Source: Escherichia coli (GTDB taxonomy: Bacteria; Pseudomonadota; Gammaproteobacteria; Enterobacterales; Enterobacteriaceae). From it: DNA of 64,000 nucleotides. The stretch lies in NCBI RefSeq assembly GCF_003334765.1, contig NZ_QOWT01000001.1. The stretch is one strand, 5' to 3'. The notes below the pieces were generated by a model, which did not search any database, was not told where the DNA came from, and saw nothing but the letters and a program-made list of their open reading frames with translations. Below, piece by piece: positions 1 through 1,740 of the stretch (positions within the stretch are counted from its first letter, which is position 1; each line of letters opens with the position of its first letter). The translations under genes were made by a program, and so were the position numbers.

Positions 1-576
1 CAGATTGCTTTTCAACACTATTGTCAGAGTCTGGAGCAGATTGAAGATCGCATACTTCAACTCGACCAGGAAATATCTCGCCTGTTACCTGAGTGGTCTC
101 TGTGCAATCTGGTCTGCCAGTTGCAGGCTCTTAAAGGTGTTGGTCAGCTAATTGCAATAACTCTGGTTGCTGAACTGGGTGATTTTTCGCGATTTTCCAA
201 TCCCAAACAGCTCATGGCTTTTCTGGGACTGGTGCCAGGTGAATATTCCAGTGGAAACAGTATTCGTCCCAGAGGAATAACAAAAGTTGGAAACAGCGAA
301 CTGAGACGTCTGCTTTACGAAGCCGCCTGGTCTTATCGTACACCTGCAAAAGTTGGGGCATGGCTTATATATTACCGACCGGACTCTGTAACACAATATT
401 CCAAAGATATTGCATGGAAAGCTCAACAACGATTGTGTTCTCGTTACCGAAGTCTGACAGCAAAAGGGAAAAAATCACAAGTAGCCATTACGGCGGTGGC
501 TCGTGAGTTGACTGGATTTATGTGGGATATTGCACTTGCTGCCCAATCATCATTCAGTCAGCAGAAGCAAAATTAA
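1..576 (+). CDS. IS110-family transposase, C-terminal part (5' end lies outside the window)
   Basis: Reading frame is open from base 1 and continuous with ORF 121..576; the translated C-terminal region has the character of IS110/IS116/IS902 transposases by recall. Confidence 0.7.
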   Translation, partial: QIAFQHYCQSLEQIEDRILQLDQEISRLLPEWSLCNLVCQLQALKGVGQLIAITLVAELGDFSRFSNPKQLMAFLGLVPGEYSSGNSIRPRGITKVGNSELRRLLYEAAWSYRTPAKVGAWLIYYRPDSVTQYSKDIAWKAQQRLCSRYRSLTAKGKKSQVAITAVARELTGFMWDIALAAQSSFSQQKQN

Positions 577-1064
577 ACCCTGAAGCAGTCAGACACGGAA
601 TGAGTGATCCTCGTAAAAGAATTCAGGGAAGCCAGAATGCGCTAATACCTGCACGTAGAAAGAGGCCAGCTCACTGCGTAAATCGTCATGGGGCTAAAAT
701 CCCCGAATAAGAGTTTGTAAAATCCAAGATACAGTCTGACTGTTTCAGGTTCTTTAATCCGCGATATAACGAAGCTCCCGGAGCTGCGTAAGGTCTTTTT
801 GGGCTTAATATTTGACAAAGGTCATAAGAGTTTTTATTTCCGAGACAGATGGCACAAAGGGCTTTTTCCGCGGCATTATGTCTGCCTCCGCCTGACCGTC
901 AACACTGTAATAACAGAGTGCGCCCCACTGATTCAGTACACAGCTGAACCATTCTCCCAGTCTGGATTTTTGGACAGCGTGGCATTTTTCTCCACCATCC
1001 ACGCATGCAGTGAGTCCAGTAACAGTTTGCTCTTCCTCTGCCTGACCACAAGATGTTCTGGTTC

Positions 1065-1740
1065 TGGCATACTGAATTTGGCCACCTGAGCATAGGTAAT
1101 ATGCTCACCTTAGAACAACACAGATGCTCCAATGAAAAAAGGAAATTTCAGCGCAGAGTTTAAACGCGAATCCACTCAACTAGTTGTTAACCAGAACTTT
1201 ACGGTGGCAGGTACCATCCAAAGCTATGGAGGTCGGTCTTTCCACAATGACAAGATAAGTCAAACAACTGCGTGATGAGCATCAGAGCAAAACACCAAAA
1301 GCCTCTCTGATGACACCAGAACAAATCGAAATACGTGAGCTGAGGAAAAAGCGGCAACGTATTGAAATAGAGAATGAAATATTAGAAAAGGCTACGGCGC
1401 TCTTGATGTCAGACTCCCTAAACAGTTCTCGATAATCGAGAAGCTCAGAGCGCATTATCTGGTGATCGCACTTTGCCATGTGTGCAGGATTCATCGAAGC
1501 AGCTACAGAGATTGGAAAAACCGTCCTGAAAAAAAGACGGTAGACGGGCTGTATTACGTAGTCAGGTAATTGAGCTTAATGGCGGAGCAAGGAACATCGC
1601 CACAATTGCAACCCGGAGAGACTACCAGATGGGACGCAAGCTTGCTGGCAGTCTCATGAAAGAACAGGGGCTGGTCAGCTGTCAGCCGTTGACCCTCCGG
1701 TACAGGCATGGCAGTCATGAACTTGTAGCTATCCTAAGAA
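1065..1740 (+). mobile_element. Degenerate IS3-family (IS911-like) element: possible left end, frameshifted orfA, 3'-truncated orfB
   Basis: orfA-like translation [14 protein letters not shown]... is split over three frames and ends ...[21 protein letters not shown]; orfB-like translation ([26 protein letters not shown]...) breaks off near 1740. Boundaries approximate. Confidence 0.55.
1132..1435 (+). pseudogene. IS3-family orfA with two frameshifts
   Basis: N-terminal, HTH-like ([11 protein letters not shown]) and leucine-zipper parts lie in three different frames. Confidence 0.55.

What the first reader, a model, noticed from the sequence alone, without database searches (positions are those of the whole stretch)
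1..1740. Stack of decayed insertion sequences at the island edge
An IS110-family transposase 3' portion is followed by an IS3-family element whose orfA has two frameshifts and whose orfB is truncated. IS110-family elements are of current interest as bridge-RNA recombinases, but the 5' non-coding end that would carry such an RNA lies outside the window.
Basis: partly seen in the sequence, partly recalled or inferred. Interest (0 to 1): 0.3.

Follow-up and report, generated by a model that had tools for sequence, protein, structure and literature searches.

The report
ISEc45 with guide RNA, nested IS remnants
The region is an ordinary pile of insertion sequences in E. coli, but the IS110-family element (ISEc45) looks intact rather than decayed. 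It belongs to the IS1111 subtype, so its guide ("bridge"/seek) RNA gene lies at its 3' end, inside the window, and directs it into a conserved motif of IS66 transposase genes.

Summary
Partly confirmed, and ordinary overall. Window 1-830 is the 3' 57% of ISEc45 (IS110 family, IS1111 group). The 191 codons present are 100% identical to the reference transposase, and the element is cut only by the window edge.

ISEc45 has a 59-nt 5' non-coding end and a 254-nt 3' non-coding end (577-830), so the bridge/seekRNA-type gene lies inside the window. A covariance model built from 15 distant relatives, without the window, hits once at 599-729 (80.9 bits, E 1e-14). The model has two internal loops. Their strands match the insertion target and the element's right end, and they co-vary with both across relatives.

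This is the site ISEc45 inserted into, at the codons for G(R/K/N)KN|WLF. 44-45 of 53 metagenomic ISEc45 junctions, and relatives from other phyla, use the same motif.

The IS3-family remnant is IS911-like (1065-1763, 85.6% identity). Its orfA has one frameshift plus one nonsense codon, not two frameshifts, and a broken slippery site. Its orfB has further lesions and is truncated at 1763.

All three families are catalogued, and an RNA in the right end of ISEc45 was already predicted in print. The IS66-motif targeting is the only possibly unreported point.

The parts
1..576 (+). ISEc45 transposase gene, 3' part (codons 187-377 plus stop). It holds the C-terminal Transposase_20-type domain.
   Evidence: NF033542 scores 151.7 bits against a cut-off of 140. 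The translation is 100% identical to the reference ISEc45 Tnp. The full-length copy in L001 has Pfam DEDD_Tnp_IS110 plus Transposase_20.
226..255 (+). Codons for GLVPGEYSSG, i.e. the GL-P----SG motif that PMC11187229 describes as conserved in IS1111 transposases.
   Evidence: Read from the translation.
577..830 (+). 3' non-coding region, i.e. the right end (RE) of ISEc45 (254 nt).
   Evidence: Occupied versus empty site comparison. The 5' non-coding end is only 59 nt in L001.
579..748 (+). Long basal stem P0 (579-594 pairs with 733-748). It encloses the RNA core and occurs only in the enteric/Nitrosomonas subclade.
   Evidence: Minimum-free-energy fold, z = -2.4. Compensated changes in L057 and L056 were read.
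599..729 (+). Bridge/seekRNA-type core. Helices: P1 601-605/669-673, P2 609-613/661-665, P3 624-627/648-651, P4 674-678/724-728 (weak here), P5 690-693/701-704.
   Evidence: Covariance model R1, built without the window, gives 80.9 bits, E 1e-14, and is the only hit in 64 kb. In the relatives 85% of cells are paired, 13 of 23 pairs change on both sides, and 0 of 500 shuffles reach this.
614..623 (+). Target loop, 5' strand (UAAAAGAAUU). This is the right-target guide, complementary to the top strand of core + right flank (AG|TTTTT, or AG|TTCTT in relatives).
   Evidence: It changes together with the right flank in L065/66, L069 and L070.
652..660 (+). Target loop, 3' strand (CACGUAGAA). This is the left-target guide, same sense as left flank + core (..CACGTAG|).
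   Evidence: Exact match to the metagenome site L018. Relatives pair AGCCAG, GGUAG, GUAAG, CUUAG and UCAG with matching left flanks.
679..689 (+). Donor loop, 5' strand (UAAAUCGUCAU). This is the presumed right-donor guide. It resembles the RE subterminal repeat and is complementary to the left-end ATGAC.
   Evidence: The register is unclear, so the assignment is inconclusive.
705..723 (+). Donor loop, 3' strand. AUAAGAG (707-713) is the left-donor guide, same sense as the RE end + core. UUU (714-716) matches the first bases of the right flank.
   Evidence: It co-varies with the RE end: AUCAGAG (L065/67), AUGAGAG (L069), AUAUUAG (L070), CAUAUCAG (L072).
812..817 (+). TTGACA, conserved in relatives. 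It is a probable -35 box of a promoter completed by the left-end TATGAC 17 nt away once the element circularises.
   Evidence: Conservation was read; the RE|LE junction was printed. The function is inferred by analogy with IS621.
817..826 (+). Right copy of the 10-bp subterminal inverted repeat (AAAGGTCATA). The left copy, TATGACCTTT, lies outside the window.
   Evidence: L001 3388 and 4816.
829..830 (+). Core dinucleotide AG (CT on the tnpC-sense strand). It is present at both junctions and once in the empty site.
831..1064 (-). IS66-family tnpC fragment (frameshifted pseudogene). It is the target that ISEc45 split; its other ~120 bp lie upstream of ISEc45, outside the window.
   Evidence: NF033517, E 1.2e-9, profile positions 297-350. 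PGAP annotation of L001/L002/L085. Empty site in L002.
1065..1763 (+). IS911-like (IS3-family) remnant. It comprises the left end (lacking the first 5 nt of the IS911 inverted repeat), orfA pseudogene 1132-1435, and the first ~120 codons of orfB with three indels. It has no DDE domain and no right end.
   Evidence: 85.6% identity to an annotated IS911 copy. Base-by-base alignment. NF033516 partial hits.

Best explanation
Window 1-1763 is a nested set of three insertion sequences.

The oldest layer is an IS66-family element, of which only a frameshifted C-terminal tnpC fragment survives. An IS911-like IS3-family element abuts it at 1065. That element later lost its slippery site and its reading frames, and everything beyond 1763.

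The youngest layer is ISEc45, an IS110-family element of the IS1111 group, inserted precisely into the IS66 fragment. The window starts in the middle of this element.

ISEc45 most likely works like the characterised IS1111/IS110 elements. Its 3' non-coding end encodes a roughly 130-nt structured RNA (599-729) with two internal loops. [quoted passage not shown] In the donor loop, the 3' strand pairs in the same way with the element's right end. The DEDD/serine recombinase then exchanges strands at the AG (CT) core dinucleotide.

The programmed target is the DNA encoding the G(R/K)KNWLF motif of IS66-family transposases, which explains why this copy sits inside an IS66 fragment.

Shown here: element boundaries, the empty site, the conserved RNA structure with compensatory changes, guide-flank co-variation, and the recurrent IS66 target. 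Inferred from published work on relatives: that the RNA is made, that it binds the transposase, and that it directs the reaction.
For: Boundaries: the occupied and empty sites differ by exactly 1446 bp, with AG at both junctions.

Intactness: the 191 codons present are identical to the reference. E10 and IHE3034 carry full-length transposase genes at the same site, with the 1446-bp element measured in E10.

Group: the 5' end is 59 nt and the 3' end 254 nt, with 10-bp subterminal inverted repeats. Supplementary Table 5 of Durrant et al. lists ISEc45 as 'RE, IS1111'.

RNA: 15 relatives (43-72% aa identity, several phyla) share a core with five helices. 85% of cells are paired, 13 of 23 pairs change on both sides, and 0 of 500 shuffles reach this. 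Most relatives fold into this shape on their own. The model without the window finds 599-729 at E 1e-14 and nothing else in 64 kb.

Guides: the loop strands match the flanks and change with them in L063, L065-67, L069, L070 and L072. The strand logic equals the published LTG/RTG/LDG scheme, with the order reversed as reported for IS1111.

Target: 44-45 of 53 metagenome junctions lie at LG(K/R/N)K|N of several different IS66 elements. Rejoined flanks of L056, L059 and L060 read ...GKKNWLF / GRKNWLF. Many E. coli copies abut ISEc22, ISEc23 or other IS66-family genes.

IS3 and IS66 remnants.
Against: The 5' 616 bp of ISEc45 are outside the window, so the integrity of this particular copy cannot be shown.

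There are no expression data for the RNA.

In this copy helix P4 is weak, with only 2-3 of 5 pairs.

The right-donor guide could not be placed in a consistent register.

The window's own left flank (CATAAAG) has 2 mismatches plus 1 wobble against the left-target guide (CACGUAG). Either insertion tolerated an imperfect match or the site has drifted since.

The guide-flank statistics rest on few independent target types, and the relatives share ancestry.

No sigma-70 promoter or intrinsic terminator was found for the RNA.
Confidence: 0.85

Rival explanations
1. The IS110-family piece is a real decayed fragment, a 3' half without its 5' half.
For: Only the 3' 830 bp can be seen. Solo right-end fragments of ISEc45 do exist in some E. 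coli genomes (H81, H84, H85).
Against: The 191 codons and the right end carry no lesion and are identical to the reference. The two genomes opened with this junction hold a complete transposase gene. The neighbouring true remnants, by contrast, carry several indels per few hundred bases.
Confidence: 0.07
2. The conserved 3' non-coding core acts as DNA or as an ordinary 3' UTR (transposase-binding repeats, mRNA stabiliser), not as a guide RNA. On this view the matches to the flanks reflect repeated end sequences.
For: The donor-loop 3' strand is a direct repeat of the right-end terminus, and the 5' strand resembles the subterminal repeat. No promoter or terminator was found.
Against: Helices keep pairing through changes on both sides, which argues for selection on a folded single strand. 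The target-loop strands match host flanks that are not part of the element and change with them. For four IS1111 elements the RNA was purified with the transposase and shown to be essential and reprogrammable (PMC11187229).
Confidence: 0.06
3. The ISEc45-IS66 association is a single ancestral composite spread by descent or recombination, not target-specific insertion.
For: The same junction occurs in at least three E. coli haplotypes at one chromosomal locus. That pattern is most simply explained by identity by descent.
Against: Junctions occur in at least five distinct IS66 sequence types, on plasmids and chromosomes, and in relatives from Nitrosomonas, Planctomycetes and Sphingomonads with unrelated flanks. 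They are always at the same codons. An uninterrupted site exists.
Confidence: 0.03

Closest known systems
IS1111-family elements with seekRNA (ISEc11, ISKpn4, ISPa11, ISPst6; Siddiquee et al. 2024, PMC11187229)
   Same: DEDD transposase with a GL-P----SG motif, subterminal inverted repeats with short terminal extensions, a long non-coding region downstream of tnp, and an RNA whose top-strand-pairing segment lies 5' of the bottom-strand-pairing segment.
   Different: The ISEc45 transposase is 377 aa, whereas that paper gives 330-350 aa for typical IS1111 transposases. It shares only about 16-25% identity with the elements tabulated there. The target (IS66 tnpC) is different, and no experiment exists for ISEc45.
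IS621 bridge RNA (IS110 group; Durrant et al. 2024, PMC11208160; Hiraizumi et al. 2024)
   Same: Two internal loops, one for the target and one for the donor. Each strand includes the core dinucleotide. Left guides pair with the bottom strand and right guides with the top strand. The core is CT/AG, and a -35 box sits in the right end.
   Different: In IS621 the RNA lies in the left end, upstream of tnp, and the order of guides within the loop is opposite. IS621 has only 2-3-bp subterminal repeats.
[quoted passage not shown]
   Same: An IS1111-group element whose specific target is a conserved sequence of another mobile element.
   Different: Here the target is a coding motif inside a transposase gene, not a terminal repeat, and insertion inactivates that gene.
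IS911 (IS3 family)
   Same: 85.6% nt identity over 699 bp, with the orfA/orfB arrangement and slippery-site position conserved.
   Different: It is a dead remnant: one frameshift and one nonsense codon in orfA, a mutated slippery site, three indels in orfB, and no catalytic domain or right end.
IS66 family (ISEc22, ISEc23 and relatives)
   Same: The fragment matches profile positions 297-350 of the IS66 transposase model, including the G-x-K-N motif region.
   Different: Only a frameshifted C-terminal piece of tnpC is left. It is split by ISEc45, and tnpA and tnpB are absent.

Membership tests
IS110 family, IS1111 group | Transposase with an N-terminal DEDD (RuvC-like) domain and a C-terminal Transposase_20 domain | tested here: met
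   The C-terminal half in the window scores 151.7 bits against NF033542, above the cut-off of 140. The full-length identical-family copy L001 has PF01548 plus PF02371. The DEDD half of this particular copy lies outside the window.
IS110 family, IS1111 group | Subterminal inverted repeats of 7-17 bp with short terminal extensions | tested here: met
   10-bp TATGACCTTT / AAAGGTCATA, 4 nt from each end. Only the right copy (817-826) is in the window.
IS110 family, IS1111 group | The longer non-coding region lies downstream of tnp | tested here: met
   254 nt at the 3' end against 59 nt at the 5' end. Listed as 'RE / IS1111' in Durrant Supplementary Table 5.
IS110 family, IS1111 group | Sequence-specific insertion without target duplication beyond the core | tested here: met
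   The empty site and occupied site differ by exactly the element, with a shared AG. The same target motif occurs in 44-45 of 53 junctions.
IS110 family, IS1111 group | Transposase length and close relationship to the IS1111 clade (330-350 aa per PMC11187229) | tested here: inconclusive
   ISEc45 Tnp is 377 aa, and pairwise identities in that paper's table are about 16-25%. The GL-P----SG motif is present (226-255). No phylogeny was built here.
Bridge RNA / seekRNA | Conserved secondary structure in the non-coding end, supported by compensatory changes | tested here: met
   (13 of 23 pairs changed on both sides; 0 of 500 shuffles; slid controls 33-53% paired against 85%). (E 1e-14 hit from a model built without the window).
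Bridge RNA / seekRNA | [quoted passage not shown] | tested here: met
   614-623 versus core + right flank, and 652-660 versus left flank + core. Co-variation across six target types.
Bridge RNA / seekRNA | Donor loop pairing both sides of the circle junction | tested here: inconclusive
   The left-donor side (707-713) is met, with co-variation in L065/67, L069, L070 and L072. The right-donor side has no consistent register.
Bridge RNA / seekRNA | The RNA is transcribed, binds the recombinase, and is required and reprogrammable | not testable with these tools
   Shown only for other elements (PMC11187229, PMC11208160). No promoter or terminator was found by consensus scan.
Bridge RNA / seekRNA | Match to a curated RNA family | tested here: not met
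   No Rfam 15 family matches 1-2400 at E <= 1, apart from a chance snoRNA hit below threshold elsewhere in the region (1059-1147). Rfam appears to have no model for this RNA.
IS3 family (IS911-like) | orfA and orfB in -1 register with an A6G-type slippery site | tested here: not met
   The arrangement is recognisable, but the slippery site is mutated (G at 1385) and both frames are broken. This is a remnant, not a functional member.
IS3 family (IS911-like) | DDE catalytic domain in orfB and terminal inverted repeats TG...CA | tested here: not met
   Homology ends at 1763, before the catalytic domain. There is no right end, and the first 5 nt of the IS911 left repeat are absent.
IS66 family | tnpA-tnpB-tnpC organisation with an intact tnpC | tested here: not met
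   Only a frameshifted tnpC fragment is present, matching profile positions 297-350 of 387. PGAP marks it as a partial pseudogene.

The most novel reading that the evidence does not exclude
The ISEc45 clade is a lineage of RNA-guided insertion sequences that has specialised on the DNA encoding the near-invariant G(R/K)KNWLF motif of IS66-family transposases. It does so from E. coli to Nitrosomonas, Sphingomonads and Planctomycetes. That would make it a 'hyperparasite' that lands in, and inactivates, another IS family. Its target-loop guides track the synonymous and near-synonymous variants of that motif. I found no statement of this in the papers searched. It may nevertheless be recorded in ISfinder notes, which I could not consult.
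Probability: 0.5. Interest if true: 0.4.

Novelty: already known. Interest (0 to 1): 0.22.

Why it matters
For annotation, the finding corrects a tempting rule of thumb. In IS1111-group elements the guide RNA is at the 3' end, so a window that holds only the 3' part of such an element still holds the RNA. Here it can be read together with its target, because the insertion site is also in the window.

Biologically, the region is one more IS graveyard at a variable E. coli locus and has no special consequence. The one point of wider interest is the recurrent, cross-phylum targeting of a conserved coding motif of IS66 transposases. This is a natural example of one mobile element using a programmable RNA to home in on another. 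It also offers a ready-made set of natural guide/target pairs, including mismatched ones such as the window's own site, for studying the specificity of IS1111-type systems.

Tried and rejected
1. An exact scan of the species-representative genomes for the 20-nt right-end terminus found nothing.
2. An Rfam search of 1-2400 gave only a sub-threshold chance snoRNA hit.
3. RNAalifold on the raw MAFFT alignment recovered only 11 pairs, because the variable hairpin and a 1-nt loop-length difference shift the columns. I therefore wrote the structure by hand from the single-sequence folds and tested it by pair counts.
4. An early word match of GUUCUU (749-754) to the left target AAGAAC was rejected. 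It lies outside the conserved core and is absent from relatives.
5. The longest-pairing-run matrix separates the target groups for three of the four guide strands. It is noisy when wobble pairs are allowed and gives no clear signal for the right-donor strand, so I do not claim that guide.
6. The promoter/terminator scan of 400-1200 found no site for the RNA.
7. I considered whether the window's combination (ISEc45 plus the clbP fossil downstream) marks an unusual strain. No complete E. coli genome covers 1-2300 at 80% or more, but each half is common. I treat this as haplotype shuffling at a rearrangement-prone locus, not as a feature.
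Full report
WHAT IS IN THE SEQUENCE

Window 1-573 is an open frame of 191 codons ending at a stop at 574-576. It scores 151.7 bits against NCBIfam NF033542, 'IS110 family RNA-guided transposase' (cut-off 140). It is identical, residue for residue, to positions 187-377 of the ISfinder ISEc45 transposase as printed in the supplement of Siddiquee et al. 2024.

In 5,426 complete E. coli genomes, the best matches to 1-1763 (99.3-99.4% identity) lie under a gene annotated 'IS110-like element ISEc45 family transposase'. In strain E10 that gene is a full 1134 nt and has Pfam DEDD_Tnp_IS110 plus Transposase_20.

I compared E10 (occupied site) with strain S1-SRL-01-C (empty site). ISEc45 is a 1446-bp insertion...GAAGAACATAAAG|ATGGTATGACC......GGTCATAAGAG|TTTTTATTTCC..., with the dinucleotide AG shared by both junctions. 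In window coordinates the element ends at 830.

It has a 59-nt 5' non-coding end and a 254-nt 3' non-coding end (577-830). It also has 10-bp subterminal inverted repeats, TATGACCTTT/AAAGGTCATA, 4 nt from each tip.

The DNA that ISEc45 split is a frameshifted C-terminal fragment of an IS66-family tnpC on the minus strand. In the window it occupies 831-1064; about 120 further bases lie beyond the other end of ISEc45. The evidence is NF033517 (E 1.2e-9, profile positions 297-350) and the PGAP annotation of three genomes.

THE IS3-FAMILY REMNANT

From 1065 to 1763 the sequence is 85.6% identical to an annotated IS911 copy. A base-by-base alignment shows the following:
- The first 5 nt of the IS911 left repeat are missing.
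- orfA (1132-1435) has one 1-nt insertion (~1217) and one TGG->TAA codon (1256-1258).
- The A6G slippery site is broken by a G at 1385.
- orfB has a 1-nt deletion after 1533, an in-frame 18-nt deletion after 1582 and a 2-nt deletion after 1738.
- Homology ends at 1763, well before the catalytic domain.

'orfB truncated' is right.

THE RNA IS INSIDE THE WINDOW

That holds for the IS110 group, not for the IS1111 group.
- Durrant et al. 2024 found that IS1111 elements have long right ends and carry the predicted RNA there. Their Supplementary Table 5 lists 'ISEc45 RE IS1111'.
- Siddiquee et al. 2024 showed for four IS1111 elements that the downstream non-coding region yields a 70-100-nt seekRNA. 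It co-purifies with the transposase and is essential and reprogrammable.

I tested this directly. A scan of 100,044 species genomes with the ISEc45 transposase returned 28 relatives (43-72% identity) from Nitrosomonas, Trabulsiella, Planctomycetes, Sphingomonads, Rhodobacteraceae, Belnapia, a Rhizobium Ti plasmid and Acidobacteria. Their regions downstream of tnp share a core with window 599-729.

Folded singly, most relatives adopt the same architecture:
- P1 and P2 close a large internal loop that carries hairpin P3.
- P4 closes a second internal loop that carries hairpin P5.

On an alignment of 15 relatives without the window, this hand-written structure has 85% of cells paired. 13 of 23 pairs change on both sides, and 0 of 500 shuffles reach the observed values. 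Slid controls give 33-53% paired.

A covariance model built from that alignment finds one hit in the whole 64-kb window, at 599-729 on the plus strand (80.9 bits, E 1e-14). Rfam 15 has no matching family.

In ISEc45 and its two closest relatives, a long extra stem (579-594 with 733-748) encloses the core. P4 is weak in ISEc45.

GUIDES AND TARGET

Fifty-two metagenome contigs carrying the exact 20-nt right-end terminus gave 53 junctions. Of these, 44-45 abut IS66-family tnpC at the codons LG(K/R/N)K|N, in at least five different sequence types. Many E. coli copies abut ISEc22, ISEc23 or other IS66-family genes.

The distant relatives sit at the same place. The rejoined flanks of L056, L059 and L060 read ...GKKNWLFTGS...GRKNWLFVGG and ...GRKNWLFAGS.

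The loop strands read as follows:
- Right-target guide: the 5' strand of the first loop (614-623, UAAAAGAAUU) is complementary to the top strand of core + right flank. That flank is AG|TTCTT in most relatives and AG|TTTTT, with a G:T wobble, in E. coli.
- Left-target guide: the 3' strand of the first loop (652-660, CACGUAGAA) has the sense of the left flank + core. It matches the metagenome site ...CACGTAG| exactly.
- Left-donor guide: the 3' strand of the second loop carries AUAAGAG (707-713), the sense of the right-end terminus CATAAGAG. It is followed by UUU, which matches the right flank.

All three change together with the DNA they match:
- AGCCAG goes with ..GAGCCAG|.
- GGUAG goes with ..GAGGTAG| (L063).
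- GUAAG goes with ..GGGTAAG| (L065-67).
- CUUAG goes with ..GCTTAG| (L069).
- AUCAGAG, AUGAGAG, AUAUUAG and CAUAUCAG go with the corresponding right ends.

This is the strand logic published for IS621: left guides pair with the bottom strand, right guides with the top strand, and the core is included in each. The order within the loop is reversed, as reported for IS1111 elements.

I could not assign the right-donor strand (679-689) a consistent register.

The window's own left flank, CATAAAG, has two mismatches and one wobble against the left-target guide. This is nevertheless the most common left-flank type in the metagenome set.

MECHANISM

By analogy with the characterised relatives, the element probably excises as a circle. 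The conserved TTGACA at 812-817 would then lie 17 nt from TATGAC in the left end and form a junction promoter (read; inference). The RNA would then hold the IS66 target and the circle junction in a transposase complex, which exchanges strands at the AG/CT core.

What I have shown is the anatomy and the co-variation. Transcription, protein binding and guidance are inferred.

CONTEXT

Downstream of 1763 lie:
- a fossil of the clbP 3' end and the clbQ-like thioesterase 5' end (about 1921-2261);
- ibrA/ibrB (2263-4124);
- a TonB-receptor pseudogene, cobUST, three tRNA-Asn genes, nac/cbl, yeeO and amn;
- the yersiniabactin island.

The same ISEc45-in-IS66 junction occurs next to three different downstream sequences: the window, E10 and IHE3034. 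No complete genome covers 1-2300 at 80% or more. The locus is therefore a rearrangement-prone IS graveyard.

VERDICT

The region is ordinary. One layer was missed, one element was wrongly called decayed, and the statement about the RNA's location is wrong.

Everything here belongs to catalogued families, and the right-end location of the ISEc45 RNA was already predicted in print. The only possibly unreported point is that this clade targets the GRKNWLF-coding motif of IS66 transposase genes across phyla. I found no mention of it in the papers searched.

Noticed in passing
window 1921-2273: A fossil of the colibactin (pks) island. It holds the 3' end of clbP (with an internal stop) and the first ~41 codons of a clbQ-like thioesterase, running directly into ibrA. 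PGAP annotates it as partial pseudogenes in related genomes.
   Followed up: partly
window 2263-4124: An ibrA (PAPS-reductase-like, 410 aa) and ibrB (ParB-like, 214 aa) pair with overlapping stop and start. It appears intact.
   Followed up: no
window 4200-28000 and beyond: The rest of the window holds a TonB-receptor pseudogene, cobUST, ldtA, three tRNA-Asn genes, nac, cbl, yeeO, amn and shiA. An inverse-autotransporter pseudogene follows, then the yersiniabactin island starting at fyuA.
   Followed up: partly
window 1-2300: No complete E. coli genome out of 5,426 covers this stretch at 80% or more. The same ISEc45-in-IS66 junction is joined to three different downstream sequences: the window, E10 (L001) and IHE3034 (L085).
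   Followed up: partly
window 789: There is one extra A (GCGTAAGGTC versus GCGTAGGTC in E10) in the right end, outside the conserved RNA core.
   Followed up: no
L059 and L063 (right junctions): The right end terminates in ...CATAAGAA rather than ...CATAAGAG, while the left flank still ends in AG. Either the core differs at the two junctions or one has mutated.
   Followed up: no
L067 ~1700-1800; L003 4857-5048: L067 has a tandem duplication of the last ~45 bp of the right end. L003 has two copies of the ISEc45 right-end terminus 172 bp apart. Both look like rearranged or aberrant ends.
   Followed up: no
L080, L082 (Novosphingobium): The RNA core of an ISEc45 relative is cut after the target loop by an inserted sequence with a long perfect palindrome.
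   Followed up: no
window 1-573 (protein): The C-terminal half of the ISEc45 transposase gives a sub-threshold hit to the NCBIfam model for the TIGR-Tas RNA-guided endonuclease (35.6 bits, E 8.8e-9).
   Followed up: no
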